Assembly: GCF_000284115.1 (NCBI RefSeq)
Contig: NC_017080.1
Span: forward strand, 1,350,001 to 1,382,000
Reading direction: 5' to 3'
Source of the DNA: Phycisphaera mikurensis NBRC 102666
Lineage (GTDB): Bacteria; Planctomycetota; Phycisphaerae; Phycisphaerales; Phycisphaeraceae
DNA: 32,000 bases
Every line of letters starts with the position of its first letter. Within the stretch, counting starts at the first letter, position 1. The translations under genes were made by a program, and so were the position numbers. The notes beneath the pieces are model-generated. The model made no database searches. It was not told the origin of the DNA and saw only the letters and a list, made by a program, of their open reading frames with translations. Of this stretch, positions 9,525 to 23,171 are shown in pieces.

Positions 9525-9538
9525 TGTAGAATACTACA
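9525..9538. promoter_or_regulatory. AT-rich near-palindromic box TGTAGAATACTACA
   Basis: It has 5-bp perfect arms (TGTAG/CTACA) and lies 36 nt upstream of the FG-GAP ATG. It shares GAATACTACA with the box at 19009. On the minus strand it reads TGTAGTATTC, containing a TAGTAT -10-like hexamer. Confidence 0.4.
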
Positions 9539-9603
9539 TCGCTTCGAGGGGTCGAGGAAGCGGCAACCTGTCCGACGGCCGGCGGGACGGGGGCAAGCGT
9601 TTC

Positions 9604-10965
9604 TCAACCCGCTCCGGGCAGCGCAAACCCGTCGCCGACCTCTTCGAGCAGCGCCTTCAACCGCCCGTGCAGCTCCCGCCGCTTGGGGGCGGCGTGGGCG
9701 TGGTGGGCGAGGTTGCACATCTCCAGCGGGTCCTCGTCGAGGTCGAACATCAGGTAGGGGGCGCCCGCGAAGCTCGCGTACTTCCAGCCGTCGGCGGTAA
9801 CGATCCCGCGCCACGGCAGGTCGTTGGCGGGGCCGTGCCCGGTCGGCCGGATGTACTGCAGCAGCGCCGCGTCGGGCGGTGTGCCCTCGGCCCGGGCGAG
9901 CCCGCCGGGGCGGGCGGCGGCGGAGAAGTCGAAGCCGGGCATCGCGTCGGGCTTGGGGATCCCGCACAACCCCAGCGTCGTGGGAACCGCGTCGACGGTC
10001 CCGATCGGCGCCGCTTCGGCGTGCGGCATCGCGTAGTGCCGGTCGCAGGGCCCGCCGACGATCATCGGCACGTTCACGCTGCCCGCGTAGGGCGTGCATT
10101 TGCGGAAGTGCCCGTGCTGGCCGTGCTGGTCGCCGTGGTCGGAGAGGTAGACCACCGCCGTGTCGTCGGCGAGGCCGAGCCGGCGCAGGGCCTCGCGGAT
10201 CCGGCCGACGTTGTGGTCGAGGTTCTCCACGAGGGCGTTCGCCCCGGCGATCTCGCGGCGGGCCTGCTCCTCGATCCGCGGAATCGGCGGGACGTTGCGT
10301 GGCAGCACGACGTCGGCGGGTCGGTGCCGCCGCATCCAGTCCGCCGGCGCGGTGTATGGGTCGTGCGGCGGCTGCACCGAGATCGCGACGAAGAAGGACG
10401 CGCCCGCGGCGGCGAGCTCTTCGAGGTGCCCGATCGCGAGGTCCGTCAGGTCGTCGGTCTCGAAGGAGGGCAGCCGGTGCCGCTCCACCTCCTCGGTGGT
10501 GTCGCCGGTCCGCCGGTGGCCGTGCACGTGGCAGTCGAACTGCGCATTGTTGTTCTCGTAGCCGATCCACGTGTCGAAGCCGCCGCGCCGCTCGCGCGGG
10601 ACGTGGTGGAAAGCCGCCCGGCCCGTCTTCTCGTGGAAGCCGTCCAGGTGCCACTTGCCGAACCACGCGGTGCGGCGGCCGGCCTCGCGGAAGGCGTGCG
10701 CGATCGTCGGCATCTCCGGCGGCATGCGCACCTCGTGCCCGTCCACGCAGTGGTGCGGGTAGCGCCCGGTGAGCAGCGTGCCCCGGGCGGGGCAGCACAG
10801 CGGGAAGACGCTCTGGTGCCGGGTGAAGCGCACGCCCTCGGCGGCGAGCCGGTCGAGGTTGGGCGTCGCGGCGTTCGGGTCGCCGGCACACGAGAGCATC
10901 GAGGCGGGGTGCTGGTCGGAGAGGATCCAGACCGCGTTGCGGGCGAAGGGGCACGACTTGGACAT
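9604..10965 (-). CDS. S1-family sulfatase (Cys-type)
   Basis: The real start is the ATG at 10965 ([19 protein letters not shown]...). Upstream residues of the track ORF are Arg-rich nonsense. The signature is [12 protein letters not shown] (C-x-P-x-R), with [12 protein letters not shown] also present. No signal peptide is visible. Confidence 0.9.
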
Positions 10966-11091
10966 GAAGAAGGATGCGCGGAGCACGGGGACGGCTCCGC
11001 TGGCGCCCGGGCCCGGCGGTTGGCGGACCCGGCTCCGGCGCGTGCCCGGGCCCGCACCCGAGACCGGGAGCACTTGCCTCCGAGCGTTCAG

Positions 11092-11101
11092 TAGTATACC
11101 A
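11092..11101. promoter_or_regulatory. TGGTATAC-type box (TAGTATACCA; minus strand TGGTATACTA) in a divergent intergenic region
   Basis: It sits between the sulfatase (start 10965, minus) and the pseudopilin-like gene (start 11219, plus). It reads as TGGTATACT (extended -10 form TGnTATAnT) on the minus strand and TAGTAT on the plus strand. Confidence 0.45.
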
Positions 11102-11218
11102 TTCGGGGTGGCTCGGCCCGTCCTCTCGTGGCGCCGGGCTTGCCGAGGGCCGATTCTCCTCGCCCCCGCGTCCCGGTCTCTGGGTGTTTCCGCTCTTCGC
11201 CTCCTCCTCGGTGTCCCC

Positions 11219-12061
11219 ATGCCCCGCTCCCGACGTTTCCGCTCCGCCTTCACGCTCATCGAGCTGCTGGTCGTCATCTCCATCATCGCCATACTCGTGG
11301 GCATCCTTCTGCCGGCGCTGGGCGCAGCCCGTGACGCGGCCAAGAACGTGCAGTGCCTCTCGAACCTCCGGCAGGTCGGCATCGCGGCGAGCGCCTACGC
11401 CGCGGACTTCGGCCGCTACCCCACGCACGTGCAGGAGCTGGTGGCGGCGAGCAGCCTGCCCACGCAGCTCAAGCTGTTCAACACCGCCGGCGACCCGGAC
11501 CGCGACCTCCGCCGGCTCTGGGCGGATTACATGAGCAGCGTGAACGCGATCGAGTGCCCCTACACGGAGCCGTTGGACCTCTCCAGAGAGAACATCCCCG
11601 TCGCGTCGAGCGATCGCGTCTACGTCGACTTCTTCCTCACCCCCGGCTACTGGAGCAACGAGGCCGCGCGGACCGGACCCTTCTCCGAGGTGCCCGGCGC
11701 CCGCACCGGCCTCTGGACGAGCCCGGACGAGAACTGGGAGATCGCCGAAGAGAAGTACGAGGTCATCGCGGGCGATCTCGCGCTCATCCGCGGCCGCTTC
11801 AACGGCGCCTTCGGCCAGTTCAATCACGTCAACGGCTTGAGCGGCGACATCATCGAGAGCGTCAACGACACGCCCGGCAGCTTCTGGAGCACCTTCTTCC
11901 GCGTCAACAATGCCTTCCCCGACAAATACTTCGACGGCCGGGCGAACTACGTCCTGCGGGACGGAAGCGCCTCGGGCTACGAGGTGCGTGACCCGAAGAT
12001 CCGCGAACTCGCACTCACGGGCACCCGGCAGCCTTGGCGGATGATGTTGCCGACGCAGTGA
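11219..12061 (+). CDS. prepilin-type N-terminal cleavage/methylation domain protein (planctomycete DUF1559 / H-X9-DG-like pseudopilin)
   Basis: It starts at ATG 11219: [43 protein letters not shown], the classic type IV/T2SS pilin N-terminus. The C-terminal [10 protein letters not shown] resembles the aNvlFaDGSv end of the H-X9-DG family, but the His is absent. Confidence 0.88.
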
Positions 12062-12092
12062 CCGCCGCGGCGGCGACACCCCGCAGAACGTT

Positions 12093-12098
12093 TACGCT
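12093..12098 (+). promoter_or_regulatory. candidate -10 hexamer TACGCT placed 7 nt before the gntR-like ATG (leaderless arrangement)
   Basis: TACGCT-cgcccgc-ATG(12106). The same TACGNT-N7-ATG geometry occurs at 28010 and 28712. Confidence 0.4.
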
Positions 12099-12105
12099 CG
12101 CCCGC

Positions 12106-12915
12106 ATGCAGCGGACCCGGGCCGACGCGAAGCTCCCCAACTTGGCCCGAGGCAGCGGCTCCGCCCCCGAGGCGGGCGACGGCTCGGGCCTGCCGCTCAA
12201 GCCGACGCTGTCCAGCCGGGCGTACCGGCAGATCCGCCAGATGCTGCTCGACGGCACCCTCGCCGAGGGCATGCTCGTCAGCGAGCAGTCGCTCGCGGCG
12301 AAGCTGGGCATCAGCCGCACGCCGGTGCGCGAGGCGATCCGTCGGCTGCGGGCCGAGCGGATCGTCGAGCAGGTCCACCGCGTGGGCACCACCGTGCGGA
12401 AGCCCAGCCCCGAAGAACTCGTCGAGCTCTACGACCTGCGGGAGGCGCTGGAGGTGTTCGCCGCGGGCCGGGCCGCGAGCGGCGCCGCGAGCGAGAAGCA
12501 GCTCGACCGCCTCGGCCGCTACTGCGACGCGATGATGATCCTCGCCCGCCGCCTCCGCGCCGCGGACCGCGGGCGGAAAGACGCCGAAGCCGCCACGGTC
12601 CGCGGCCAGTTCTTCGCCGCCGACATGGCCTTCCACACCGAGCTGATGGGCGTCACCGGCAACGCGGCGATGCTCAACCTGATCCGCGAGACCCGCGTCT
12701 TCACGCAGATCTTCACGCACCGCCGCCACCCCTTCATCGACGACCTCACGATCGCCCACGTCTACCGGCACCACCGGCGGATCCTAAACGCGATCCGCCA
12801 CGGCAACGCCGCCGAAGCCGGCCGCCGCATGGCCGATCACATCCGCGCGAGCAAGGAGGGCATGCTGCCCTTCCTGCGCGAGCGCGAGGCGGCTGGGGCG
12901 GTTGAAGTCCGCTGA
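12106..12915 (+). CDS. GntR-family transcriptional regulator, FadR/FCD subfamily
   Basis: A winged-HTH is present: SEQSLAAKLGISRTPVREAIRRLRAERIVEQVHRVGTTV. It is followed by an all-helical FCD-type C-terminal domain (LYDLREALEVFAA... HRRILNAIRHGNAAEA). The track start at 12034 is a TTG that overlaps the upstream gene, so ATG 12106 is preferred. Confidence 0.88.
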   Translation: MQRTRADAKLPNLARGSGSAPEAGDGSGLPLKPTLSSRAYRQIRQMLLDGTLAEGMLVSEQSLAAKLGISRTPVREAIRRLRAERIVEQVHRVGTTVRKPSPEELVELYDLREALEVFAAGRAASGAASEKQLDRLGRYCDAMMILARRLRAADRGRKDAEAATVRGQFFAADMAFHTELMGVTGNAAMLNLIRETRVFTQIFTHRRHPFIDDLTIAHVYRHHRRILNAIRHGNAAEAGRRMADHIRASKEGMLPFLREREAAGAVEVR

Positions 12916-13063: not shown

Positions 13064-13666
13064 TCAGGCGTCGCGGCGACGCTTCAGCAGCAGCACGCCG
13101 CCGGCGAGGGCCAACGCCGCGGAGGCGGGCTCGGGGATCGCGTCGATGTTCACGGCGTTGATGCGGTAGCCGACGTTCCCGCCGGTGCCCGTCGAGAGGT
13201 TGTCCACCGTGAGCACCTCGCCGGCGGCAAAGGAGAGGCCCAGGGGCACGTCGCTGTCGGGCGCCTGAGCGGACAGGGCGGTGGAGAAGGTCGCGGAGTC
13301 GCCGTCGGCGGCGGACACCGTGATGGTGTGGGTGCCATCGAAGAGGCGGGCGGTGAGGCCGATCAACGTGCCGGCGGTGTCGAAGCTCAGCGTGTAGGAC
13401 TCGCCGCTGCTCACGTTGAAGCCGGGGTTGGTGAAGCGTGTCTCGCCCGGACCCACGATGCCGGTCCCGCCGCCGGTGCCCTCGAAGATCCCGCTGCCGG
13501 TGCTCATGGTCAGCGTCACGCCGTCGGCGGTGGTGGTGCCCGAAGACACGCCCTCCAGGAAGGTGCCGTTGTTGGCGTTGAAGTCGGTGAACGAGACGGG
13601 GACGGCGGAGGCGGTGCCCGCGACCGCGGTGCAGGCGGCGGCGGACAGGACGGAGCGGAAGAGCAT
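13064..13666 (-). CDS. PEP-CTERM sorting-domain protein (small secreted protein)
   Basis: The ATG at 13666 is preceded by GGAG. It has a signal peptide (MLFRSVLSAAACTAVAGTASA) and a C-terminal IPEPASAALALAGGVLLLKRRR (PEP motif, TM helix, basic tail). 200 aa. Confidence 0.85.
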   Translation of the reverse strand: MLFRSVLSAAACTAVAGTASAVPVSFTDFNANNGTFLEGVSSGTTTADGVTLTMSTGSGIFEGTGGGTGIVGPGETRFTNPGFNVSSGESYTLSFDTAGTLIGLTARLFDGTHTITVSAADGDSATFSTALSAQAPDSDVPLGLSFAAGEVLTVDNLSTGTGGNVGYRINAVNIDAIPEPASAALALAGGVLLLKRRRDA

Positions 13667-13722: not shown

Positions 13723-13732
13723 AAGTATACCA
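13723..13732. promoter_or_regulatory. TGGTATAC-type box (minus strand TGGTATACTT)
   Basis: The minus strand reads atcTGGTATACTtgg, a textbook extended -10 (TGnTATAnT). It lies ~57 nt upstream of the PEP-CTERM ATG and downstream of the sulfatase stop (13815). Confidence 0.45.
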
Positions 13733-13814: not shown

Positions 13815-15440
13815 TTAGCGGTTCCACGCCGTACCGGCGAGGCTGCCGCCGGCGGCGAAATACGCGTCGACGCTGAGCTTTGTGGGGTCGAGCGTCGTCT
13901 CCTTGGCGATCGCCCGGTCGAAGGCCTCGGCGGCGGACTCCACCGGGTGCGGGTGGCCGGGCGGCAGGCGGTCGGCCCAGCGGCCGTCGTTGATCTCGAC
14001 GCGGCCGGCGGCGGCGGCCCGGGCGGCGTCGTCGAGCGGGGGCTCGGGCCAGACGCGGAAGCCGGTGGCGTCGGTGGAGCGGTCGCCCAAGCCGTGTTCG
14101 CGCTCCCAGGCGAGCGCGGCGGCACGCCACCGGGCGACCCACGCGGGCGGATCGTCCCGCTCCGCGAGGTTCTCGAGCTCGTGCGGGTCGGCGGCGAGGT
14201 CGTAGGCCTCCTCGCGGCCGCCGCTGGCCCAGAACACGTACTTCTCCTTGTCACTCCGCCGGCAGACCCAGCGTTGGTCGTCGTGGCCGAAGTCGATGAC
14301 GTGGGCCTCGCGCTCCGGCGCGGGAGCGAGCAGGCTGGCGCCGGGGAGCGGCGGGAGCTCGGTGGGGAAGGGCGGGTCCGCCGCGTCGAGAACCGTGGGC
14401 AGCACATCGGTGAGGCAGGCGAGGCGGTCGTCGACGGCTCCGGCGGGGATCCGGCCGGGCCAGCGGGCGATCAGCGGGATCCGAACCGACGCCTCGTAGG
14501 GCGTGTTCTTCTGCGAGAGGCCGTGGTCGCCGAGCATCTCGCCGTGGTCGGAGAGGAACAGCACCAGCGTGTTTTTGGAAAGGCCCAGTGCGTCGAGGCG
14601 GTCGAGAACCGAGCCGACGCAGGCGTCCACGTGAGCCACCTGGCCGTGGTAGAGCGCGGCGATGCGGCGCATCCGCGGCGGGTCGAGGTGGGCGCCATCG
14701 AGCCGGCCGCGGTGGGCGCGGGCCGGGGCGGGGAGGCTCTCCAGCGGGCGGTCCGCGTAAACCGGCGGCGGCATGTCATCGGGGTCGAAGACGTCGTCCC
14801 AGGGCTCAACCGGCGCGAAGGGCGGGTGCGGGGCGATCCACGAGGACCACAGGAAGAACGGCCGGCCGCCGTCGTAGGCGGCGTGTTCCTCTAGAAAAGC
14901 GTTGGAGCAATCGGCGACCCATCGGTTCTGCGAGCGCGGCTCGGGCACGCCGCTGGTCTGCGGCTGGTAGTACAGGAGGTCGCGGAGGCCCTGCGGGAAC
15001 CGCGTCGGCACGCCGGACCTCTGCAGGTGCTTCAGGTAGTCGTCGTGGGCGAGGCAGTCGATGCACTCCTCCATCAGCTCCTGGTGCTGGAAGCCGAAGG
15101 GCCGACGGCCGAAGTGGAACTTGCCGACGCCGCGCGTCGTGTACGCGGCGTCGTTGAGGCAGGTCATCAGCGTCGGCCACAGCGGCGTGGGCGCGTCGGG
15201 TCCGCCGGGGCCGCCGTTGGCGGTGACGCCGGTCTCGCGGGCCCGCCGCCCGGTGAGCAGGCTGTACCGGGCCGCCATGCAGATTGGCGTGGGCGTGACC
15301 GCCTGGGAGAAGCGCGTGCCCTCCGCCGCGAGCCGGTCGAGGTTCGGCGTGCGGGCGGTGGAGCTGCCGGCGCAACCGAGGGCGTCGTGGCGGAGCTGGT
15401 CCGCCATCAGCAGCAGCACGTTGGGGCGCTCGGCGGGCAT
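13815..15440 (-). CDS. S1-family sulfatase with a variant C-x-A-x-R active-site motif
   Basis: 541 aa. The N-terminus reads NVLLLMADQLRHDALGCAG. The signature is ICMAARYSLLTGR (CMAAR at 15267-15281, checked at DNA level: tgc atg gcg gcc cgg). LSDHGE is present. The ATG lies 7 nt after the GH2 stop and is preceded by GAGGA. No signal peptide is visible. Confidence 0.9.
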   Translation of the reverse strand: MPAERPNVLLLMADQLRHDALGCAGSSTARTPNLDRLAAEGTRFSQAVTPTPICMAARYSLLTGRRARETGVTANGGPGGPDAPTPLWPTLMTCLNDAAYTTRGVGKFHFGRRPFGFQHQELMEECIDCLAHDDYLKHLQRSGVPTRFPQGLRDLLYYQPQTSGVPEPRSQNRWVADCSNAFLEEHAAYDGGRPFFLWSSWIAPHPPFAPVEPWDDVFDPDDMPPPVYADRPLESLPAPARAHRGRLDGAHLDPPRMRRIAALYHGQVAHVDACVGSVLDRLDALGLSKNTLVLFLSDHGEMLGDHGLSQKNTPYEASVRIPLIARWPGRIPAGAVDDRLACLTDVLPTVLDAADPPFPTELPPLPGASLLAPAPEREAHVIDFGHDDQRWVCRRSDKEKYVFWASGGREEAYDLAADPHELENLAERDDPPAWVARWRAAALAWEREHGLGDRSTDATGFRVWPEPPLDDAARAAAAGRVEINDGRWADRLPPGHPHPVESAAEAFDRAIAKETTLDPTKLSVDAYFAAGGSLAGTAWNR

Positions 15441-15447
15441 GGGATCC

Positions 15448-18063
15448 TCAGGAATCCGCGGACCGGACGCTCATCGGGTCCGCGGTGGCGGCGGTGCGCG
15501 GCTCGGTCGCCTCCCGGCGCCCGCGGCCGGAGAAGGCGTTGGCGCTGAAGAGGCGCGGCCCGGCCGCGGGCACGCCGGCTCGCTCGCGGGCGAGGGGAAA
15601 GCGGAAGAGCGCGGTTTCGCCGGGGAGCAGCGTGCGGGTCTGCTCGTCGGCGGGCGCGTCGGCGAGGGACGGTCCGGGGTCGACGACGGCGTCGCGGAGC
15701 AGCGTGTGCGCGGTGACGGTCACGGCGAGCGTGCCGGCGGAGCGCTCGGCGGCGAGGTCGAAGCGCGGCTCTGGCAGGTGCATCGCGTGGTCGGGCGCGG
15801 GGGCCCAGACGCGGCGGCCAAGCGTCGGGTCGTCGGCGACGACGAGGCCGCCGCTCTCCTGCGCGGCGGCGGTCAGCTCCGCGGGCACCGCAGCGCGGAG
15901 CAGGATCTCCGCCGTGGCCGCGGGGTCGGCTCGCAGCGGGACGTCGGCCGAAGCGAGCTCCTCGCCCGCGGCGTCGACGGCGCGGAGACGCACGGGCACC
16001 CCGCGGCTCCAGCCGGCTGGAGCGAAGCGGACGAACGCGAGGTTCGCGGGGTCGTTTTCCGCCGCGAGCAATGCGGCCGCGTGATCGCCCATCGACCGCC
16101 GGCTCCCGTACCAGGCGAGCTTCCGGCGGCCGAAGAAGTCGATCACCGACCAGCTGACCGCGGGCCAGCTGTCCTGCAGCTGCCAGACGAGCGTCCCCGA
16201 GCAGCGTGGTTGTAGCGAGCGGTACCAGCCGGCGCCCAGCTCCACCGCCCGGCTCTGCATCAGCTGCGTGGCGTACACCCAGGCGTCGAGCGCGAGGGGC
16301 GGATCGTCCGGGCCCGGCACGGCGGCCCGGCCGAAGACCTCGTCCAGCCGGGCCTCCATCTTCGCCCGCCCGCGGGTCGCCATGAGGAAGCCCCAGGCCG
16401 CCTCGGAGCGGTCGGCCTCGGGCACGCCCGGCGTCGCCCACCGCAGCGTCTGGGCGTGCGCCGCGCCGCAGAAGCCGAACTCCGCGGCGAAGCGCGGGCG
16501 GGTCCGCAGGTACGCCTCGCCGGGCTCGCGGTTCCACGCGTCCCAGGGGTGCTGCGGGCCGTGGTTCTCGTCGTCGGCGGGGGAGCCGAGCGAACGGCCG
16601 CTGGGGCTGTTGATGACGTACGCGCTGCCCGGTGAGCGCTCGGCGACGGCCTCGGGCAGCAGCTCGCCGTAGAAGCCCTCGCCCCAGCCGGTGTCGCCGA
16701 CGGCCTCGGCCCAGCCCGGCTGCGAGCGGTGGAACCACAGGCACTCGTTGCCGCCGCACCACAGCGCGAGGCTCGGCCGCCACGCGAGGCGGTCGGCGAG
16801 GTGCGTGGCTTCCTCCCGCACCTCCCCGGCCAGCTGCGCCTCGTCGTACATCGCGCAGGCGAAGGGGAAGTCCTGCCAGACGAGGATCCCCTCCTCGTCG
16901 CAGCGGTCGAAGAAGGCGTCGCTCTCGGCCACGCCGCCGCCCCAGACCCGGATCGCGTTCGCGCCCGCGGCGAGTGCCTCGTCGAGGCGCGCCTGCGTGG
17001 TGGCCGGATCCACCCGATCGAGCAGCGTGTCGCTGGGGATCCAGTTGAAGCCGCGGCAGAAGACCTCGCGGCCGTTGACCCTCACCGCGAAGCGGGTGCC
17101 CGCGGCGGGTTCCGCGGGGTCGTCGGGGCTTCGGTCGATCTCGACGGTGCGGAGGCCGACGCGGCGGGTCACGGTTCCGTCGGCCGTCCGGGCTCGGAGC
17201 GTGGCGGTGAGTTCGTACAGCGGCTGTTCCCCGCAGCCCCGCGGCCACCACCACGCCGGCTCGCGCACGCGCAGCGTGGCCGTGGCGACGCCGTCGTCAC
17301 CGAGCGTCGCCTCGCCCGCCGCGACCACGCCACGGGTCGGATCGCTCAGCCGCAGCCGCACACGCTCTCCCGCCGCGTTGGATCCGCGGACCGTGGCGGA
17401 AACGACCGCGTTTCGCCCACGGTCCGCGGATTCCGTGGAGACCGCGAGCGCATCGATCCGGGCGGCGTCGCGCGGCCGCAGCGTCACCGCACCCGACAGC
17501 CCGCACGTGTCCAGCGGCGGAGCCCAATCCCAGCCGAAGCCACAGGCCATCTTGCGGACGCCGTTGTACGGCGTGATGCCCGGCATCGCGATGGGGTGCG
17601 GGCCCTCGGCGGCGGCAACCGCGGAGCCGGTCGGCGGAGCGAAGCGGACCTCCAGCGTGTTGCGCCGCCGGAGCCTCTCCCCGAGATCGAAAGCGTGCGG
17701 CCGGAAGCCGTTCTCGCAGCGGCCGAGCGACCCGCCGTTGAGCAGGACCTCCGCGGGCCCGTCGACGCCGGCAAGAACCAGCTCCAGGGCTGGGCCGTCG
17801 GGGTCGGCCGCGAAGCGTCGCGTCCACGACCAGCCGCAACGGCCGATCCAGCGGAGCTTCTCCCACGCTCCTCCGCGATAGGGCTCGTCGATGAGTTCCG
17901 CGGCGAGCAGCGCTGTGTGGACGCTGGCCGGCGCGTCGGTGGTCACCTCCGCCGAGCGGACCTCGGGCGGGGCGGCATCGCCGGAGCAACGCAGAGCCCA
18001 ACCGGCGGACAGATCGGCCGGCGCGGCGGCGGCATCCACGGACGGAAGAGCCGCCACCGTCAC
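15448..18063 (-). CDS. GH2-family glycoside hydrolase, beta-mannosidase-like
   Basis: Family motifs are present: VNGREVFCRGFNWIPSD, IRVWGGGVAESDAFFDRCDEEGILVWQDFPFACAMY, LWCGGNEC (acid/base) and FAAEFGF (nucleophile). The preferred start is GTG 18063, which overlaps the aldolase stop as GTGA. The track ORF extends to 18183 inside the aldolase gene. No signal peptide is visible. Confidence 0.9.
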   Translation of the reverse strand: MTVAALPSVDAAAAPADLSAGWALRCSGDAAPPEVRSAEVTTDAPASVHTALLAAELIDEPYRGGAWEKLRWIGRCGWSWTRRFAADPDGPALELVLAGVDGPAEVLLNGGSLGRCENGFRPHAFDLGERLRRRNTLEVRFAPPTGSAVAAAEGPHPIAMPGITPYNGVRKMACGFGWDWAPPLDTCGLSGAVTLRPRDAARIDALAVSTESADRGRNAVVSATVRGSNAAGERVRLRLSDPTRGVVAAGEATLGDDGVATATLRVREPAWWWPRGCGEQPLYELTATLRARTADGTVTRRVGLRTVEIDRSPDDPAEPAAGTRFAVRVNGREVFCRGFNWIPSDTLLDRVDPATTQARLDEALAAGANAIRVWGGGVAESDAFFDRCDEEGILVWQDFPFACAMYDEAQLAGEVREEATHLADRLAWRPSLALWCGGNECLWFHRSQPGWAEAVGDTGWGEGFYGELLPEAVAERSPGSAYVINSPSGRSLGSPADDENHGPQHPWDAWNREPGEAYLRTRPRFAAEFGFCGAAHAQTLRWATPGVPEADRSEAAWGFLMATRGRAKMEARLDEVFGRAAVPGPDDPPLALDAWVYATQLMQSRAVELGAGWYRSLQPRCSGTLVWQLQDSWPAVSWSVIDFFGRRKLAWYGSRRSMGDHAAALLAAENDPANLAFVRFAPAGWSRGVPVRLRAVDAAGEELASADVPLRADPAATAEILLRAAVPAELTAAAQESGGLVVADDPTLGRRVWAPAPDHAMHLPEPRFDLAAERSAGTLAVTVTAHTLLRDAVVDPGPSLADAPADEQTRTLLPGETALFRFPLARERAGVPAAGPRLFSANAFSGRGRREATEPRTAATADPMSVRSADS
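15456..15485. repeat. short variant of the palindromic element
   Basis: CCGCGGACC-N12-GGTCCGCGG with a GGAAT flank. It lies inside the last codons of GH2 (...ADPMSVRSADS*). Confidence 0.5.
17384..17429. repeat. 46-bp palindromic element embedded in the GH2 coding sequence
   Basis: GGAT-CCGCGGACCGT-N24-ACGGTCCGCGG-ATTCC with perfect arms and exactly 46 bp. It is translated in frame as ...STESADRGRNAVVSATVRGSN... Confidence 0.75.
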
Positions 18064-19007
18064 GACGCGACCGCTCCGAGCGATGCGTCCACCGCCGTCT
18101 GCGCCCGCTCCAGCAGCTTCCTGACCTTCGGCCGGTCTTCGGGCTTGAAGCCCTCGTACGGCATCGCGAGGCCGCCGCCGCACACGCCCAGCTCCGCGAG
18201 TGCCCCCTTCACCGACTTGATGAACGACGATCCGTGCTGACCCACCCGGTACAGCGTCGCGGAGATCTCCATCACGACGCCGTGCAGCCGCCGGACCCCC
18301 GCCAGGTCGCCCGCCGCGGCCGCTTCGTACAACGCCACGAACAGCGCCGGGAACAGATTCGCCCCGCCCGCCACCCCGCCATCGGCACCGAAGAGCACCG
18401 CCTCGCCGAGCAGCTCCTCGGGCCCCACGAGCACCTTGAAGCCCGGCCGATTCGCGTCCCGCTCGCGGATGACCTCGTGCAGCGTGACCATCCGGCCGGA
18501 GCTGTCCTTGAAGCCGACGAAGCGGTCGAGCGTCATCGCGTGACGCACCGCCTCGGGCGGCACCGCGCCCGTGCGCGACGGGATGTCGTAGAGGAAGACC
18601 GGCAGCGGCGACGCGTCCGCCACCGCGTCGAGGTAGTGGATCAACTCCGGCCCCGCCGTCGGGCTGTACGGCGGCGGCGCCAGCACCGTCGCCGCCGCGC
18701 CCGCCTCCGCCGCGTGGATGGACAGCTCCCGCACGCCGTCGAAGCTCGCGTCCGTCACGCCCACCAGCACCGGCAGCCGGCCCGCCGCCGCCTCGGTGGC
18801 CGTTGTCACGACGCTCTTCTTCTGCTCCATCGACAACGCCGGCCCCTCGCCGGTCGTTCCCAACACGAACAGCCCGTGCACGCCGCCGCCGATCACCCGC
18901 TCGACCACGGCCGCGAGCCCGTCGCGATCGACCCGGCCATCAGGCCCGCAGGGCGTGACCAGCGGCGGGATCACGCCGGTGCCAAGAGAGGGGGCGGGGT
19001 TGCTCAT
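18060..19007 (-). CDS. DapA/NanA-family class I aldolase (dihydrodipicolinate synthase family protein)
   Basis: 315 aa. Motifs: GVIPPLVTPCGPDGRVD, GLFVLGTTGEGPALS, and the Schiff-base lysine context GFKDSSG. It is probably not the lysine-pathway DapA, because it sits between a symporter and a glycosidase. Confidence 0.9.
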   Translation of the reverse strand: MSNPAPSLGTGVIPPLVTPCGPDGRVDRDGLAAVVERVIGGGVHGLFVLGTTGEGPALSMEQKKSVVTTATEAAAGRLPVLVGVTDASFDGVRELSIHAAEAGAAATVLAPPPYSPTAGPELIHYLDAVADASPLPVFLYDIPSRTGAVPPEAVRHAMTLDRFVGFKDSSGRMVTLHEVIRERDANRPGFKVLVGPEELLGEAVLFGADGGVAGGANLFPALFVALYEAAAAGDLAGVRRLHGVVMEISATLYRVGQHGSSFIKSVKGALAELGVCGGGLAMPYEGFKPEDRPKVRKLLERAQTAVDASLGAVAS

Positions 19008-19008
19008 G

Positions 19009-19026
19009 CCCTGGAATACTACAGGG
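19009..19026. promoter_or_regulatory. imperfect palindrome CCCTGGAATACTACAGGG spanning the symporter stop and the 11-nt gap before the aldolase ATG
   Basis: 14 of 18 positions are self-complementary. It shares GAATACTACA with the 9525 box. On the minus strand TAGTAT lies 8 nt before the ATG at 19007. Confidence 0.35.
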
Positions 19027-20569
19027 CCGCCGCGTCGTCGGCATCCCGCTCCTCGACCGGCAGCTCCCGGCTCCCGCTCCGCGGCCAGATGAAGCTCAGC
19101 GCGTACGCCACCACCATCAGCGTGACGTTGGACACCACGCCCACCCAGTAGGTGTGAACCGGGATCTGCCAGCTCGCCGGCAGCCAGCCAGCGAGCACGA
19201 CGCCGTACCAGACCTTCACCCCGACCGCGATCGGCAGCGCCAGGAGCAGCGCCTTGGGCCCCACCCGCGGCACGAAGATCGCCAGCAGGAAAATGCCGCC
19301 GACCACGCCGCCGAAGATCGACGCGATGCGGCGGGTGAGGTCCACCACGCTCTCCATCTCCAGCGTCGCGATCACCAGCGCGATGCCGATCATCGCCGCC
19401 CCCGCCGCGGCGGAGAGCAGCTTCGCGTAGAGGAGGAACTGCTTCTCCGTCGCTCCCGGCGTCAGGTACCGCCGCAGCACGTCGGTCGTCCCGATCGTCG
19501 AGACCGCGTTGATCGAGGAGTCCAGCGAGGACATGCTCGCCGCGATGATCGCCGCGACGATCAGCCCGGTCACCCCCACCGGCAGGTAATGCAGCGTGAA
19601 GTGCGGGACGATCTCTTCAGGCGTCATCGCCGCGAGCCCCGGATCGGGCAGGGCGTTGTAGAAGCTCCAGAGCAGCGTGCCGACCAGGTAGAAGAAGGTC
19701 CACGTGGGGATCGAGAGCAAGAGCGAGATCCACACCGCCTTCTGCGCCTCCCGCTTCGAGCTCGCGGCGATGTACCGCTGCACCACCGTCTGGTTGCTGC
19801 AGTTGTTCGCGATCGCGTCGAAGGTGCCCACGAACAGGAGCGTCCAGAAGGTCCGCTCCTGCAGGTTCCACCCGAAGCTGCCGACGCTGAACTTGTCCGC
19901 GTGCCACGCCCGGCTCAAGCCGCCGCCGAGGCCGTCGGGCATCTCGAAGGCGATGTAGCCGAAGATCACGATCGCCCCGCCCCAGAGCACGAAGGTCTGC
20001 ACGACGTCGGTCCAGATCACCACCTCGATGCCGCCGAACACCGTGTAGAGCAGGATGAACAGCCCGCCGAGCACGATCACCCAGACGATGGGCACGTCCA
20101 GCAGCACCGAGATCGTCACCGACACCAGGAACAGCACCGTGCCGATGCGCAGCAGCTGGAAGAGCATCACCGTGAGCGCGCAGTAGAGCCGGCTGAAGCG
20201 GCCCAGCCGAGCCTCCAAAAACTCGTACGCCGTCGTGTACGGCAGCGCCCGGAACAGCGGGACGAAGACGAAAACCGCCACCAGCATGCCGATGATGACC
20301 GCGTAGTTGGCGACCAGCAGCCGCCAGTCCAGCGCAAACGCGGCGGCGGGCAGGGCGATGAAGGAGATCGAGCTGATCGAGGTGCCGATCAGCGACAGGC
20401 CCACCGCCCAGCCGGGCACGTTGCGGCCGCCGAGGAAGTAGCCCTCGGTGTCGGCGTTCCGCCGGCCGAACCAGACCGCGAAGGCGGCGGTGGCCAAGAA
20501 ATACGCCCCGATCACGACCAGGTCGATCGCGGGCAGCGTGGCGGCGAGCAGCGGCGGAGGCACGGGCAA
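19019..20569 (-). CDS. sodium:solute symporter (SSS) family transporter
   Basis: 516 aa and highly hydrophobic, with roughly 13-14 predicted TM segments. Typical SSS motifs are present (YFLGGRNVPGWAVGLSLIGTSISSISFIALPA; WTDVVQ). The start is TTG 20569 or GTG 20563. Confidence 0.9.
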   Translation of the reverse strand: MPVPPPLLAATLPAIDLVVIGAYFLATAAFAVWFGRRNADTEGYFLGGRNVPGWAVGLSLIGTSISSISFIALPAAAFALDWRLLVANYAVIIGMLVAVFVFVPLFRALPYTTAYEFLEARLGRFSRLYCALTVMLFQLLRIGTVLFLVSVTISVLLDVPIVWVIVLGGLFILLYTVFGGIEVVIWTDVVQTFVLWGGAIVIFGYIAFEMPDGLGGGLSRAWHADKFSVGSFGWNLQERTFWTLLFVGTFDAIANNCSNQTVVQRYIAASSKREAQKAVWISLLLSIPTWTFFYLVGTLLWSFYNALPDPGLAAMTPEEIVPHFTLHYLPVGVTGLIVAAIIAASMSSLDSSINAVSTIGTTDVLRRYLTPGATEKQFLLYAKLLSAAAGAAMIGIALVIATLEMESVVDLTRRIASIFGGVVGGIFLLAIFVPRVGPKALLLALPIAVGVKVWYGVVLAGWLPASWQIPVHTYWVGVVSNVTLMVVAYALSFIWPRSGSRELPVEERDADDAAAL

Positions 20570-20645
20570 GAGCGGGCTCGGAATCGAAGAGGTGGAGCCG
20601 CCGGCGACGTCGGCGGCGCGGGTGCAGACCGCGGGCGTCGGGGCG

Positions 20646-21479
20646 TCACCGCGGCTCGGCGACGGCCGGCGTGCCCGATCCCGCCGCGTGGTGCGCGGCG
20701 ATGCGGTCCTCCGGCAGCCCCTCCGCGTAGAACGCGACCTCGTCGATCCGGCCGTGGTGGCCGTTGGTCGCCCCGCCCTCGCCGTCGAGCACGGCCCCGA
20801 TGCCGGCGGGCCGCTCGCCGGGTTGGAACGTGTCCGCCTGGAACGCGACGGAGGACTCGTCGACCCGTTCGCCGTTGAAGTACGTGGTGATCGTCTTCCC
20901 GGCGAAGTCGACCACGCCCGCCACGTGGACGAAGCCGCCGGCGTGCGGAGCGAGCTTCACATACTGCCCCGCCTGGAAGCCGTCGCCGCCGATCGACCGG
21001 CCGCCGATCCGCAGGCGGCCGTTGCGGATGGAGGCGTTCACGCCGGTGGTGATGCCGCCGCCCTTGGCGGTGCCGACGAAGACCGGCGTGAGGTTCTGGT
21101 TCTTGAAGCCCGAGAGGACGTCGGAAGTGACCTCCAGCCAGAACTCCAGCGTCACCGCCGACGCGCCCGCCAGCGATCGCGTGAGGCCGGTACCGAGGCG
21201 CACCACGCCGCCCTCGCCGCGGTCGAAAGCCGCGGCGGAATTGCTCGGGCCGAAGCCGCCCGCCTCGGGTCCGTCGACGCCGAGGTCCACGCCGGTCTCG
21301 CTCGCCTCGCCCGCACGATCGCTTGCGGCGTTCCCGACCTCGGATCCCGACGTTTCGCTGAACCGGTAGAACGCCACCGGCTCGTCAAAGAGCACGGCGT
21401 CGGCGTACTCCGGAGCGGCCGACGCCAGCGGGGCGGCGGCGAGAGCGAGGGCGGCAAGGGGGGAACGGAGGTCGATCAT
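20646..21479 (-). CDS. secreted LamG/concanavalin-A-like lectin domain protein
   Basis: A signal peptide begins at ATG 21479 (MIDLRSPLAALALAAAPLASAAP). The LamG-type core reads TLEFWLEV...VHVAGVVDFAGKTITTYFNGERV...GRIDEVAFYAEGL. Alternative upstream ATGs lie at 21512 and 21536. Confidence 0.8.
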   Translation of the reverse strand: MIDLRSPLAALALAAAPLASAAPEYADAVLFDEPVAFYRFSETSGSEVGNAASDRAGEASETGVDLGVDGPEAGGFGPSNSAAAFDRGEGGVVRLGTGLTRSLAGASAVTLEFWLEVTSDVLSGFKNQNLTPVFVGTAKGGGITTGVNASIRNGRLRIGGRSIGGDGFQAGQYVKLAPHAGGFVHVAGVVDFAGKTITTYFNGERVDESSVAFQADTFQPGERPAGIGAVLDGEGGATNGHHGRIDEVAFYAEGLPEDRIAAHHAAGSGTPAVAEPR

Positions 21480-21523
21480 CGGGATGCAGGAGGAGGGGAA
21501 GGGCGGCCACATGCCGCGCCTAA

Positions 21524-21533
21524 TGGTATACCA
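21524..21533. promoter_or_regulatory. perfect 10-bp palindrome TGGTATACCA
   Basis: It is the head of the putative LamG-symporter-aldolase-GH2-sulfatase operon, 45 nt upstream of ATG 21479. It matches the FadR-subfamily operator pattern t.GT..AC.a and also the extended -10 form TGnTATACC. Confidence 0.5.
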
Positions 21534-21573
21534 CATGCGAGCGGCGGCGACCCCGGATCCTCAGGCTCCTTTC

Positions 21574-21619
21574 CCGCGGACCGTCGAGCGAATCCAGCTC
21601 AAAGCCCCAGCGTCCGCGG
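21574..21619. repeat. 46-bp palindromic element, slightly degenerate
   Basis: CCGCGGACCGT is exact at 21574-21584. The right arm is AGCGTCCGCGG (9 of 11) at the exact 46-bp spacing. It lies ~135 nt downstream of the sulfatase stop (21755). Confidence 0.6.
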
Positions 21620-21754
21620 CGACCTCTGCAGGCCGGGGCCACCGCCCGGACGTGCCGGCATTCGCGGCAACGCTGAACCTCCGACGGCGTGTGCGGGTTG
21701 CACGGTCGGCACGCCGGAGCCCCTCGGGCTCCACGTCGGGGCGGCAGCCCTGAT

Positions 21755-23155
21755 CTACGGCGAGGCCTCCATCGCGAGGAAGCCGTTGATCGCGGCGCCC
21801 AGCCGTGCCTCGGCCTCCGCTCCCGCCGGCTCGCCCGCGAGGTCGTGCAGCTGGTTGGCGTCTGCGACCCGGTCGAACAGCTGCGTCCCCCGCGGCGTCG
21901 GGTCGCCCGGGCCGGCGTGGTAGCGGGCGAGGGTCCAGCGGCCGTCGGTCGCGCAGGTGAGGTGGATCGGCGGGTCGTGGGGCTTGTGTCCCGCGCCAAG
22001 CCCGGAGTTGCGGTACGCGTTGATCGCGATTTCCCGACGCCGACACCCCAGCGGGTCGATGGCGTCGGGCAGCTCCGCGTCCACGCCCGCGGCGTGGAGC
22101 AGCGTGGCCGTCAGGTCATTGAGCTGGATCGGCCCTGCATGCCGCATCCCCGCCTCCACGCGGCCCGGCCAGCGCACGATCGCGGGCACCCGCAGGTTCG
22201 CGTCGTAAACCACCGGGCCCTTGACCAGCAGCCCGTGGTCGCCGAGCAGGTCGCCGTGGTCGGAGAGGAACAGCACGAGCGTCTCCTCCGCGAGCCCGCG
22301 GGCGTCGAGATGCGTGAGCAGCCGACCCACGAGGTCGTCGATCATCCCGACCTCCGCGTGGTAGCCCGTCCGCATCCGCCGGACCTGCTCGTCCGTCATC
22401 TCCGCGTAGTCGCCGAAGTAGTTGTCGCGGGCGTGCCGGGCGACGCCCGGCGGGACGGTGCCCGGCGCCGGCGGCGGGATCGGCGGGGGCAGCGCCGCCT
22501 CGTCCACCCGGGCCTCCGCCTCCGGCGGGTGGTCGTCGTAAGGATTGTGCGGGTCGAAGACGCTGACCATGAGAAACCACGGCCGGCCACCGCCGCCCTC
22601 CGCGTCGAGGAACGCCGCCGCCCGCTCCGCCGCCCAAGCGTTCATGTGGACCTCCGCCGGGATCGGCCCCGCCGCCTTCTCGTGCTCCACCAGCAGCTGG
22701 TAGACGTCCGGCCGACGCGCCTCCACCCACGGCGCGTACGCATTCAGCGGCGAGCCCATCATCGCCCCGCCCCCGTAGTAGAGGTCGTAGACGTCGAAGC
22801 CGTCGTGTGGATGACGCCGCCGCGACTCGATGGCCCCCGACTGCGCGTGCAGCTTCCCGACCAGCCCGGTGCGGTAGCCCGCTCCTCGCAGCCGCTCGGG
22901 GAAGAGGACCTCTTCGGGGTCCAGCTCGCCGTCGATCGTCTCCACCTGGTGCCGCGGCAGGTGGTGCCCGGTCAGGAACGACGCCCGGCTGGGCGTGCAG
23001 ATCGGGTTCGTGCACCACGCGTTCTCGAACAGCACGCCGCTTTGCGCGAGGCCGTCAAGGTGCGGCGTGGCCACCGCGTGGTTGCCCAGGCAGCCAAGCG
23101 AGTCCGCCCGCTGCTGGTCGGTCATGATGACGAGCAGGTTGGGGCGGGCGGGCAT
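21755..23155 (-). CDS. S1-family sulfatase (Cys-type)
   Basis: 466 aa. The N-terminus reads NLLVIMTDQQRADSLGCLG. The signature is CTPSRASFLTGH (C-x-P-x-R), and LSDHGD is present. No signal peptide is visible. Confidence 0.92.
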   Translation of the reverse strand: MPARPNLLVIMTDQQRADSLGCLGNHAVATPHLDGLAQSGVLFENAWCTNPICTPSRASFLTGHHLPRHQVETIDGELDPEEVLFPERLRGAGYRTGLVGKLHAQSGAIESRRRHPHDGFDVYDLYYGGGAMMGSPLNAYAPWVEARRPDVYQLLVEHEKAAGPIPAEVHMNAWAAERAAAFLDAEGGGGRPWFLMVSVFDPHNPYDDHPPEAEARVDEAALPPPIPPPAPGTVPPGVARHARDNYFGDYAEMTDEQVRRMRTGYHAEVGMIDDLVGRLLTHLDARGLAEETLVLFLSDHGDLLGDHGLLVKGPVVYDANLRVPAIVRWPGRVEAGMRHAGPIQLNDLTATLLHAAGVDAELPDAIDPLGCRRREIAINAYRNSGLGAGHKPHDPPIHLTCATDGRWTLARYHAGPGDPTPRGTQLFDRVADANQLHDLAGEPAGAEAEARLGAAINGFLAMEASP

Positions 23156-23161
23156 CCCTGT

Positions 23162-23171
23162 TGGGATACCA
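23162..23171. promoter_or_regulatory. TGGTATAC-type box (TGGGATACCA; minus strand TGGTATCCCA) immediately upstream of the sulfatase ATG
   Basis: The minus strand reads TGG-TATCCC-aacaggg-ATG(23155). That is an extended -10-like element whose hexamer ends 7 nt before the start codon. It has one mismatch to TGGTATACCA. Confidence 0.45.

What the first reader, a model, noticed from the sequence alone, without database searches (positions are those of the whole stretch)
9525..23171. Recurrent TGGTATACCA-type palindromic boxes in front of the glycan-locus transcription units: candidate operator of the locus-encoded GntR/FadR regulator, or an extended -10
In ~70% GC DNA, six short AT-rich islands stand out, and all are intergenic. 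They are:
- 21524 TGGTATACCA, a perfect palindrome at the head of the LamG operon;
- 11092 TGGTATACTA (minus strand), between the divergent sulfatase and pseudopilin genes;
- 13723 TGGTATACTT (minus strand), before PEP-CTERM gene 1;
- 23162 TGGTATCCCA (minus strand), before a sulfatase;
- 9525 TGTAGAATACTACA, before the FG-GAP gene;
- 19009 CCCTGGAATACTACAGGG, before the aldolase.

Aligned, they share nTGG(T/A)ATAC(T/C). The core fits the published FadR-subfamily GntR operator pattern (t.GT..AC.a). E. coli NanR, a FadR-type GntR regulator, is known to bind GGTATA repeats in front of a NanA aldolase/transporter operon. Here a FadR/FCD-type GntR gene (12106-12915), a NanA/DapA-family aldolase and an SSS symporter are all in the same locus.

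The alternative reading is that TGGTATACT is simply the extended -10 (TGnTATAAT) used by this organism.
Basis: partly seen in the sequence, partly recalled or inferred. Interest (0 to 1): 0.7.

Follow-up and report, generated by a model that had tools for sequence, protein, structure and literature searches.

The report
GntR repressor boxes on glycan-locus promoters
A 10-base palindrome, TGGTATACCA, sits on the -10 region of four promoters in a sulfated/sialo-glycan utilisation locus of Phycisphaera mikurensis; it is most likely the binding site of the locus's own GntR/FadR-type repressor, an ordinary kind of switch that has not been described before in this little-studied phylum.

Summary
The window is from Phycisphaera mikurensis (72% GC). 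Four TGGTATACCA-type boxes lie in front of sulfatase C, the LamG-SSS-aldolase-GH2-sulfatase B operon, PEP-CTERM gene 1, and between divergent sulfatase A and pseudopilin. Matches with up to 2 mismatches: 8 found against 1.2 expected.

Five related Phycisphaera-like contigs carrying the 81-83% identical GntR add 13 boxes. All 17 read TGGTAT-(A/C)-C in the gene direction. TGGTATAC occurs 18 times in 119 kb against 0.75 in shuffles, and never before the about 60 unrelated genes.

Generic promoters of this clade are different: TAnnnT with a GC-rich interior and no TG, often 6-7 nt before the ATG (leaderless).

The box fits the FadR-subfamily operator consensus TKGT-N2-3-ACMA. Perfect copies sit at the 5' end of GntR homologues in Planctomycetales, Verrucomicrobia, Phycisphaerales and Streptomyces: 8 in 26 kb near those genes against 1 in 1.28 Mb elsewhere. 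Their position relative to the promoter varies.

In the Phycisphaera clade the box also occupies the -10 position.

The two looser sites (9525, 19009) are degenerate variants, more likely -10 only.

Kind of mechanism: known (AusR, UxuR). Binding is untested.

The parts
21524..21533 (-). Box 1, TGGTATACCA, a perfect palindrome. It lies 12 nt upstream of the called LamG ATG (21512), at the head of the LamG-SSS-aldolase-GH2-sulfatase B gene string.
   Evidence: The LamG orthologue in L004 has TGGTATACTT with TTGACC 16 bp upstream of TATACT.
11092..11101 (.). Box 2. It reads TGGTATACTA towards sulfatase A (- strand) and TAGTATACCA towards pseudopilin-GntR (+ strand). It is a single shared site in a divergent promoter region, and each strand offers a TAnnnT hexamer (TATACT / TAGTAT).
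   Evidence: The same divergent arrangement is seen in L004 (12663), L005 (1695) and L086 (6787).
13723..13732 (-). Box 3, TGGTATACTT on the - strand, about 57 nt upstream of the PEP-CTERM gene 1 ATG (13666). The gene has a GGAGAA Shine-Dalgarno sequence.
   Evidence: The L005 orthologue has the identical box with TTGACC at a 16-bp spacer. The L003 orthologue has the variant TAGTATTCTA instead.
23162..23171 (-). Box 4, TGGTATCCCA on the - strand. It ends 6 nt before the sulfatase C ATG (23155). The arrangement TATCCC + 7 nt + ATG is the clade's leaderless -10 geometry.
   Evidence: The box and spacing are identical in L003 (8545) although the flanks have diverged. The leaderless geometry was established.
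19012..19021 (-). Degenerate variant, TAGTATTCCA on the gene strand. It contains the SSS stop codon and lies 8 nt before the aldolase ATG (19007). It is probably an internal leaderless -10 (TAGTAT), and at best a weak operator.
   Evidence: The core is conserved in L005 (12896) while the flanks differ.
9527..9536 (-). It lies 37 nt upstream of the FG-GAP ATG (9489).
   Evidence: The same 10-mer replaces the strong box at the PEP-CTERM promoter of L003.
12106..12915 (+). GntR/FCD (FadR-subfamily) regulator, 269 aa, the proposed box-binding repressor.
   Evidence: It has PF00392 and PF07729. Its HTH (VSEQSLA...ISRTPVREAIR) is near-identical to homologues that carry perfect boxes at their own genes. 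D173, H177, H223 and H245 are invariant in 27 homologues.
12093..12098 (+). The regulator's own box-less leaderless -10: TACGCT + 7 nt + ATG.
   Evidence: Equivalent hexamers precede the GntR gene in L003 (TACCCT+6), L004 (TAGCAT+6) and L005 (TACGCT+7).
13815..23155 (-). Box-controlled catabolic genes: sulfatase C 21755-23155, LamG 20646-21512, SSS symporter 19019-20569, DHDPS-family aldolase 18060-19007, GH2 15448-18039, sulfatase B 13815-15440.
9604..12061 (.). The divergent pair under box 2: sulfatase A 9604-10986 (-) and DUF1559 pseudopilin 11219-12061 (+).
13064..13666 (-). PEP-CTERM protein 1, under box 3.

Best explanation
The four strong boxes are operators of the locus-encoded FadR-subfamily GntR/FCD regulator (12106-12915). 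Each operator is fused to the -10 region of a promoter of the sulfated/sialo-glycan utilisation locus.

Proposed mechanism:
- A regulator dimer binds the 10-bp palindrome TGGT-AT-ACCA.
- The same bases supply the promoter's -10 hexamer (TATACY) and an upstream TG, so bound repressor and RNA polymerase exclude each other.
- A sugar-acid intermediate of the pathway is the likely inducer (a sialic-acid-like or 2-keto-3-deoxy acid). It would bind at the FCD metal site and release the repressor.
- The regulator gene has its own box-less leaderless promoter, so it is made constitutively. Read-through from the boxed pseudopilin promoter may add to this.

Shown here: the boxes, their conservation, their restriction to this locus, their position at -10, and the association of the same palindrome with homologous regulators in other phyla.

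Inferred: that this protein binds the boxes, that it represses, and what the inducer is.
For: 1. Enrichment and restriction. TGGTATACCA with up to 2 mismatches gives 8 matches against 1.16 expected in the window. TGGTATAC occurs 18 times (both strands) in 119 kb of six Phycisphaera-clade contigs against 0.75 in shuffles. Nearly every TGGTAT in that DNA is a box. There is no further box in 46.8 kb of P. mikurensis outside 11092-23171.

2. Conservation with the regulator. The five contigs whose GntR is 81-83% identical each carry 2-3 boxes in front of orthologous or similar genes (sulfatase, SASA esterase, pseudopilins, LamG, PEP-CTERM). This holds although the gene order is rearranged.

3. It is not the generic promoter. 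16 of 80 genes have TAnnnT 5-9 nt before the start codon, against about 1 expected. The 14 of these outside the box-controlled genes (12 at 6-7 nt) are TA(C/G)nnT types with no TG.

4. It fits the FadR-type operator consensus TKGT/ACMA (PMC4494728), given as TKGT-N2-3-ACMA in PMC7641319. The UxuR site used in PMC8092373 is AAATTGGTATACCAATTT. Natural E. coli uxu sites are TGGT-N2-ACCA.

5. The same palindrome is found at homologous regulator genes. There are 8 perfect TGGTATACCA in 26 kb around the starts of 80 GntR homologues, against 1 in 1.28 Mb elsewhere. The 29 composition-matched control palindromes give 1 near-hit in total. The position varies:
- at -10 in L007 and L011 (TTGACC/TTGACA - 17 bp - TATACC);
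- in the -35/-10 spacer in L008;
- downstream of the -10 in L033.
A polymerase element would not move like this; a transcription-factor site can.

6. The recognition helices of the P. mikurensis protein match those of L008 and L009.

7. The box lies at -10. Sulfatase C has TATCCC + 7 nt + ATG in two species. TTG-type -35 elements sit 15-18 bp upstream of the TATAC(C/T) hexamer in 6 of 17 boxes (16 bp in three). All mismatches fall at positions 7, 9 and 10 in the gene direction, and C9 to T creates TAnnnT in 10 of 17.
Against: - No binding, transcription-start or expression data exist for this organism, so everything rests on sequence comparison.
- The regulator's own gene has no box, unlike most of the distant homologues.
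- P. mikurensis probably has other FCD-type GntR paralogues. Assignment to this one rests on co-localisation only.
- Only about 47 kb of the 3.8-Mb genome and about 119 kb of the clade could be inspected. Boxes elsewhere in the genome, in front of unrelated genes, are not excluded.
- Two of the four window boxes (TATACC, TATCCC) lack the -7 T of a normal -10. The claim that they serve as the -10 themselves is therefore weaker for them.
- The 17 sites were found by similarity to the palindrome, which inflates their apparent invariance somewhat.
Confidence: 0.72

Rival explanations
1. The boxes are only strong extended -10 promoter elements (TGnTATAcT) read by RNA polymerase. No repressor binds them, and their likeness to a FadR-type operator is coincidence.
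For: - The boxes lie at the -10 position: sulfatase C has TATCCC + 7 nt + ATG, and TTGACC/TTGCCA sit 15-18 bp upstream of the hexamer in 6 of 17 boxes.
- There is an orientation bias. TGGTAT is always intact in the gene direction, and position 9 is T (giving TAnnnT) in 10 of 17.
- The degenerate variants TAGTATTC(C/T)A keep TAnnnT but lose the palindrome.
Against: - The 14 generic TAnnnT promoters of the clade outside the box-controlled genes have no TG and almost never TAT. Polymerase therefore does not need this sequence.
- G at the 'n' of TGn and AC at -9/-8 are invariant or nearly so in 17 boxes. A -10 does not require them.
- 7 of 17 boxes lack the -7 T.
- The same 10-mer stands at homologous GntR genes in Verrucomicrobia, Phycisphaerales and Streptomyces at positions that are not -10.
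- In all six contigs the boxes occur only next to the GntR gene.
Confidence: 0.12
2. The boxes are operators, but of a different transcription factor encoded elsewhere (another FCD/HutC-type GntR paralogue or an unrelated dimeric factor). The neighbouring GntR would then control something else.
For: - GntR-family HTH domains are very similar across paralogues, and several subfamilies read GT..AC palindromes (PMC4494728).
- The local regulator gene carries no box of its own.
- Only a small part of the genome was seen.
Against: - Co-localisation of boxes and this GntR orthologue survives three different gene orders.
- Its closest cross-phylum homologues carry perfect boxes at their own promoters.
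- No other regulator gene is conserved in these loci.
Confidence: 0.1
3. The boxes are chance AT-rich words, or remnants of a short dispersed repeat, with no function.
For: Only that they are short, at 10 bp.
Against: - The enrichment is roughly 7-fold (window, up to 2 mismatches) to 24-fold (clade, TGGTATAC) over shuffles.
- They are exclusively intergenic and exactly conserved while their flanks diverge.
- There is no flanking similarity that would mark a repeat element.
Confidence: 0.01

Closest known systems
AusR of Zobellia galactanivorans, a FadR-subfamily GntR repressor of the alginate utilisation system (PMC7641319)
   Same: - A marine polysaccharide-utilisation locus is controlled by a locus-encoded FadR-type GntR.
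- The operators fit TKGT-N2-3-ACMA.
- Operators occur at several promoters of the system and overlap the promoter's -10-equivalent (-7) box.
- Repression is lifted by a degradation intermediate.
   Different: - The phylum and promoter type differ: Bacteroidota with a TAnnTTTG -7 box, against Planctomycetota with TAnnnT and frequent leaderless mRNAs.
- AusR promoters often carry 2-3 operators, and ausR itself has one. Here there is one box per promoter and none at the regulator gene.
- The substrate differs: sulfated or sialylated glycan rather than alginate.
- AusR binding was shown by EMSA; here nothing has been tested.
E. coli UxuR/ExuR hexuronate repressors
   Same: - They are FadR/FCD regulators with a metal-containing effector site.
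- Their operator architecture is TGGT-N2-ACCA.
- The UxuR site used in PMC8092373 contains exactly TGGTATACCA.
- Natural uxu-locus sites are TTGGTCAACCAT, GTGGTTAACCAA and TTGGTTGACCAG.
   Different: - Protein identity is only 25%.
- The ExuR model scores 26 bits against a cut-off of 396.
- No hexuronate genes are present in the locus.
- E. coli sites extend to AAATTGG...CCAATTT, whereas here there is no conservation beyond the 10-mer.
E. coli NanR, the sialic acid repressor (PMC8012715)
   Same: - It is a FadR-subfamily GntR.
- Its GGTATA core is the same as in the box.
- It controls an aldolase-plus-transporter operon.
- This regulator group neighbours sialate O-acetylesterase (L005, L086), BNR sialidase-like genes (L007, L033) and DHDPS aldolases (window, L008).
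   Different: - NanR reads three direct GGTATA repeats bound by three dimers. Here there is a single inverted repeat with no neighbouring GGTATA.
- The NanR model scores 48 bits against a cut-off of 260.
- The aldolase is below the NanA cut-offs.
Extended -10 sigma-70 promoters (TGnTATAAT)
   Same: TG lies one base upstream of a TATAC(T) hexamer. A -35 element is weak or absent in most boxes. The spacing to the start is correct.
   Different: It is not the clade's general promoter form. 7 of 17 boxes lack the -7 T. The sequence is palindromic and follows a regulator gene.

Membership tests
FadR-subfamily GntR operator | Palindrome with conserved TKGT / ACMA half-sites and 2-3 nt between GT and AC | tested here: met
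   TGGT-AT-ACCA is perfect at 21524. The other three window boxes have 1-2 mismatches, all in the 3' half. The consensus is from PMC4494728 and PMC7641319.
FadR-subfamily GntR operator | Sites lie in 5' regions of genes linked to a FadR-type regulator gene and are conserved across genomes | tested here: met
   There are 17 boxes in six clade contigs, all within 10 kb of the GntR orthologue and all intergenic. Around 80 homologues, 8 perfect boxes lie near the gene starts against 1 elsewhere.
FadR-subfamily GntR operator | Specific binding by the regulator, relieved by a small-molecule effector | not testable with these tools
   This needs EMSA, fluorescence polarisation or DAP-seq.
FadR (FCD) subfamily of GntR regulators (the protein) | N-terminal GntR winged HTH plus an all-helical FCD effector domain | tested here: met
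   PF00392 scores 65 bits and PF07729 scores 57 bits, both above their cut-offs.
FadR (FCD) subfamily of GntR regulators (the protein) | Asp and three His of the FCD metal/effector site | tested here: met
   D173, H177, H223 and H245 are invariant in 27 homologues and align with D/H positions of UxuR. That these residues bind metal is taken from knowledge of FCD structures, not tested here.
E. coli-type NanR | Operator of three direct GGTATA repeats | tested here: not met
   Each promoter has a single inverted repeat, and the flanks contain no second GGTATA.
E. coli-type NanR | Protein reaches the NanR family model cut-off | tested here: not met
   NF003011 scores 48 bits against a cut-off of 260.
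E. coli-type NanR | Controls sialic acid catabolism (NanA lyase, transporter) | tested here: inconclusive
   A DHDPS-family aldolase and an SSS symporter are present, but the aldolase scores 82-96 bits against NanA cut-offs of 281-382. SASA esterase and BNR sialidase-like neighbours in relatives point the same way.
UxuR/ExuR | Orthology to UxuR/ExuR and linkage to hexuronate genes | tested here: not met
   Identity to UxuR is 25%. The ExuR model scores 26 bits against 396. No uxu or uxa genes are in the locus.
Generic extended -10 promoter element of the organism | Present at -10 distance upstream of most genes regardless of function | tested here: not met
   None of about 60 genes outside the glycan/GntR locus in 119 kb has it. 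The 14 generic TAnnnT promoters lack the TG and the TATAC. Only about 1% of the genome was sampled.
Sigma-70-type -10 element (position and form) | TAnnnT hexamer about 7 nt upstream of the start, with -35 at 16-18 bp | tested here: inconclusive
   The geometry is met for sulfatase C in two species. TTG-type -35 elements are present in 6 of 17 boxes. TAnnnT is present in 10 of 17, but TATACC and TATCCC lack the -7 T. No transcription start data are available.

The most novel reading that the evidence does not exclude
The 10-bp palindrome would be a three-in-one element. It would serve at once as repressor operator, as the promoter's own (extended) -10, and, at the divergent sulfatase A / pseudopilin pair, as a bidirectional -10 that offers TAnnnT on both strands (TATACT / TAGTAT). 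In places it would drive leaderless mRNAs. One regulator dimer on 10 bp would then switch two divergent transcription units with no other promoter DNA. This would also be the first regulon-level cis-element defined in Phycisphaerae, and it would tie a PVC-wide GntR clade to sialic-acid-like glycan catabolism.
Probability: 0.35. Interest if true: 0.5.

Novelty: new member of a known kind. Interest (0 to 1): 0.35.

Why it matters
Gene regulation in Planctomycetota, and in Phycisphaerae especially, is almost unexplored, although these bacteria are major degraders of sulfated algal and animal glycans.

This finding offers three things:
- a concrete and cheaply testable regulon: one regulator, four to six promoters, and a defined 10-bp site;
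- a picture of the clade's ordinary promoters (TAnnnT, many leaderless);
- a candidate inducible promoter-repressor pair for genetic tools in high-GC planctomycetes.

The mechanism itself is well known: a FadR-type repressor sitting on the -10 of catabolic promoters.

Tried and rejected
- A genome-contig scan with the single GntR protein found nothing, so the source genome could not be sampled that way.
- Look-ups of the P. mikurensis plasmid by accession failed.
- L002 proved identical to the window and added nothing.
- A strict sigma-70 consensus scan of 9000-28900 found no promoter. This is uninformative in 72% GC DNA.
- The natural E. coli uxu locus has no TGGTATACCA with up to 1 mismatch. 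The literature site may therefore be a consensus or lie elsewhere. Only the TGGT-N2-ACCA architecture is shared.
- No palindrome or conserved bases extend beyond the 10-mer.
- I rejected NanR-type direct repeats, chance occurrence, and a dispersed repeat element.
- Other GntR homologue groups (Acidobacteria) carry different palindromes, TGTCGACA and TTGTATAC, so the box is not universal for the family.
The genome-wide test therefore remains partial.

Full report
**Source and gene map**

The window is from Phycisphaera mikurensis (GCA_014207395.1, contig JACHEL010000003.1). The GntR protein is named as P. mikurensis in the protein collection. The window is 71.9% GC.

Gene calls and Pfam/NCBIfam hits give this map:

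| Gene | Coordinates | Strand |
|---|---|---|
| FG-GAP | 6619-9489 | - |
| sulfatase A | 9604-10986 | - |
| DUF1559 pseudopilin | 11219-12061 | + |
| GntR/FCD regulator | 12106-12915 | + |
| PEP-CTERM protein 1 | 13064-13666 | - |
| sulfatase B | 13815-15440 | - |
| GH2 | 15448-18039 | - |
| DHDPS-family aldolase | 18060-19007 | - |
| SSS symporter | 19019-20569 | - |
| LamG | 20646-21512 | - |
| sulfatase C | 21755-23155 | - |

Unrelated genes follow: SOD, a sigma factor, an aminotransferase, a methyltransferase, ferredoxin and flavodoxin.

**Checking the observation**

TGGTATACCA with up to 2 mismatches gives 8 matches against 1.16 expected, and no shuffle out of 100 reached 8. Five matches are intergenic. 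The three coding ones are what chance predicts.

The four strong boxes, read in the direction of the gene, are:
- TGGTATACCA (LamG);
- TGGTATACTA (sulfatase A; the other strand, TAGTATACCA, faces the pseudopilin);
- TGGTATACTT (PEP-CTERM 1);
- TGGTATCCCA (sulfatase C).

The two looser sites read TAGTATTCCA (aldolase) and TAGTATTCTA (FG-GAP) on the gene strand. The aldolase site contains the stop codon of the symporter gene and fills an 11-nt gap. Its outer CCCTG/CAGGG arms are not conserved in a relative.

**Relatives**

Five metagenomic contigs encode a GntR that is 81-83% identical (L003, L004, L005, L086, L087). Gene order differs among them:
- in L003 the regulator follows sulfatase C;
- in L004 it follows an unrelated FAD-binding enzyme and precedes sulfatase, two pseudopilins and LamG;
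- L005 and L086 carry an added sialate O-acetylesterase-family gene.

Each contig carries 2-3 boxes, 13 in all. They lie in front of sulfatase C, sulfatase A / SASA or pseudopilin (divergent), pseudopilins, LamG and PEP-CTERM.

Across the 17 boxes, positions 1-6 and 8 (TGGTAT.C) are invariant in the gene direction. Position 7 is A in 15. Position 9 is T in 10 and C in 7. Position 10 is A in 11. Nothing outside the 10-mer is conserved.

In 119 kb of clade DNA, TGGTATAC occurs 18 times (both strands) against 0.75 in shuffles, and almost every TGGTAT is a box. Extending the P. mikurensis sequence to 46.8 kb added no box outside 11092-23171.

**Is it the organism's generic -10?**

No. Of 80 called genes in these contigs, 16 have a TAnnnT hexamer 5-9 nt (mostly 6-7) before the start codon, against about 1 expected. 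This indicates frequent leaderless transcripts.

Fourteen of the 16 lie outside the box-controlled genes. Their hexamers are TACGCT, TACGAT, TACCTT, TAGCGT, TAGCAT, TAGAGT, TACCCT, TACGGT, TATCGT and TAGCCT. None has TG one base upstream, and only one begins TAT. The regulator gene itself has such a promoter in four genomes (TACGCT + 7 nt + ATG at 12093-12098).

SOD, the sigma factor, enolase-side genes, AhpC, QueC/QueF, ferredoxin and others have no box.

**Does the box nevertheless sit at -10?**

Yes, as far as sequence can tell.
- At sulfatase C the arrangement is TATCCC + 7 nt + ATG in both P. mikurensis and L003. That is exactly the leaderless geometry.
- Six of 17 boxes have a TTG-type -35 element (TTGACC, TTGCCA, TTGCCC, TTGCGT) 15-18 bp upstream of the TATAC(C/T) hexamer, 16 bp in three of them.
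- All departures from the palindrome fall in the downstream half. The commonest, C9 to T, creates TAnnnT.

This asymmetry is what a double constraint predicts: an operator that must also serve as a -10.

In L003 the PEP-CTERM promoter carries TAGTATTCTA where P. mikurensis and L005 have TGGTATACTT. The variant form is therefore a decayed box that keeps TAnnnT but loses the palindrome. For this reason I rate the 9527 and 19012 sites as promoter elements and, at most, weak operators.

**Is it a transcription-factor site?**

The box fits the FadR-subfamily consensus: TKGT/ACMA boxes (PMC4494728), written TKGT-N2-3-ACMA in PMC7641319. The UxuR site used in a biosensor study is AAATTGGTATACCAATTT (PMC8092373). 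In the E. coli K-12 uxu locus I found no exact copy, but three TGGT-N2-ACCA sites.

The strongest evidence is comparative. I scanned genomes with an alignment of 27 homologues, which returned 80 loci. Eight perfect TGGTATACCA lie within -300 to +30 of the match start of the GntR homologue (26 kb in all), against one in the remaining 1.28 Mb. Twenty-nine composition-matched palindromes gave one near-hit between them.

The loci with boxes are:
- L007 (Planctomycetales): two adjacent boxes, TTGACC - 17 bp - TATACC;
- L008 (Verrucomicrobia): the box lies in the spacer between TTGATG and TAGAAT + 7 nt + ATG;
- L009 (Chthoniobacterales): TGGGATACCA;
- L011 (Planctomycetaceae): CGGTATACCG at -10;
- L033 (Phycisphaerales): the box lies 13 nt downstream of TTGACA - 16 bp - TATTCT, inside the first codons;
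- three Streptomyces loci: TTTGGTATACCAAA;
- L085 (Moorellaceae), where one perfect box lies beyond the gene's 3' end; it is the single perfect copy counted outside the near-start windows.

A polymerase element would not change position like this; a repressor site can.

The recognition helices of the P. mikurensis protein (VSEQSLA, ISRTPVREAIR) are the same as in L008 and nearly the same as in L009. Other homologue groups, mainly acidobacterial, carry other palindromes (TGTCGACA, TTGTATAC).

**Function of the regulon and the inducer (inference)**

The controlled genes are four sulfatases without signal peptides, GH2, LamG, an SSS symporter, a DHDPS-family aldolase, a pseudopilin and a PEP-CTERM protein.

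Relatives add a sialate O-acetylesterase-family gene. The distant homologues with boxes are followed by BNR sialidase-like genes (L007, L033) or a DHDPS aldolase (L008). This points to a sialic-acid-like or keto-deoxy sugar-acid branch of sulfated glycan breakdown.

No protein reaches an equivalog cut-off for NanA, NanR, UxuR or ExuR. The regulator keeps the Asp/His/His/His pattern of the FCD site. I therefore propose a carboxylate sugar acid as inducer, without evidence for which one.

**Comparison with known systems**

The closest working analogue is AusR of Zobellia. It is a FadR-type repressor of a marine polysaccharide system, and its TKGT-N2-3-ACMA operators overlap the -7 box of several promoters. 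A degradation intermediate releases it.

UxuR/ExuR share the operator architecture but not orthology (25% identity).

E. coli NanR shares the GGTATA core and perhaps the physiological theme, but it reads three direct repeats (PMC8012715; PMC4494728). Direct repeats are absent here.

**Verdict**

The operator reading is supported. The generic extended -10 reading is refuted as stated, but it is correct in that the operator is fused to the -10.

This is a new member of a known kind of switch, in a phylum where hardly any regulon has been described. Binding, repression and the inducer remain to be shown.

Noticed in passing
Phycisphaera-clade loci: window 12093-12105, 28003-28022 and others; L003, L004, L005, L086, L088: 16 of 80 genes have a TAnnnT hexamer 5-9 nt (mostly 6-7) before the start codon, against about 1 expected. 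Leaderless mRNAs with GC-rich -10 hexamers (TACGCT, TACGAT, TACCTT and others) therefore seem common in this clade.
   Followed up: partly
L089 2706-6536 and on to about window 1470 (window = L089 - 6765): There is a tandem array with a period of about 336 bp (81-90% matches) spanning roughly 5 kb at and beyond the left edge of the window. The first 2 kb of the window has a weak coding signal. Its nature is unknown.
   Followed up: no
window 3236-4636, 9604-10986, 13815-15440, 21755-23155: All four sulfatases begin their catalytic domain at residues 4-17 and have no signal peptide. They appear to be cytoplasmic, which is unusual for glycan sulfatases and implies that sulfated sugars are imported.
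   Followed up: no
window 12106-12204: The regulator has an N-terminal extension of about 33 residues before the winged helix (MQRTRADAKLPNLARGSG...). It is conserved in the Phycisphaera clade and absent from most homologues. E. coli NanR also has a functional N-terminal extension. I could not tell whether the two are related.
   Followed up: no
L004 about 3210-3407 and about 6690-6810: CTCTTT-rich repeats (ctctctttctctctttctctc) recur in three intergenic regions of this related contig.
   Followed up: no
L014-L016, L018, L019, L024, L025 (Acidobacteria), upstream of the GntR homologues: These homologues carry a different repeated palindrome, (A)TGTCGACA(T), often in two copies. This suggests a sister group with a changed operator specificity.
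   Followed up: no
window 23834-24124: The divergent SOD / sigma-factor intergenic region (290 nt) has no box. Upstream of the sigma gene there is a TAGTAAGTAGGAT stretch that may hold its -10.
   Followed up: no
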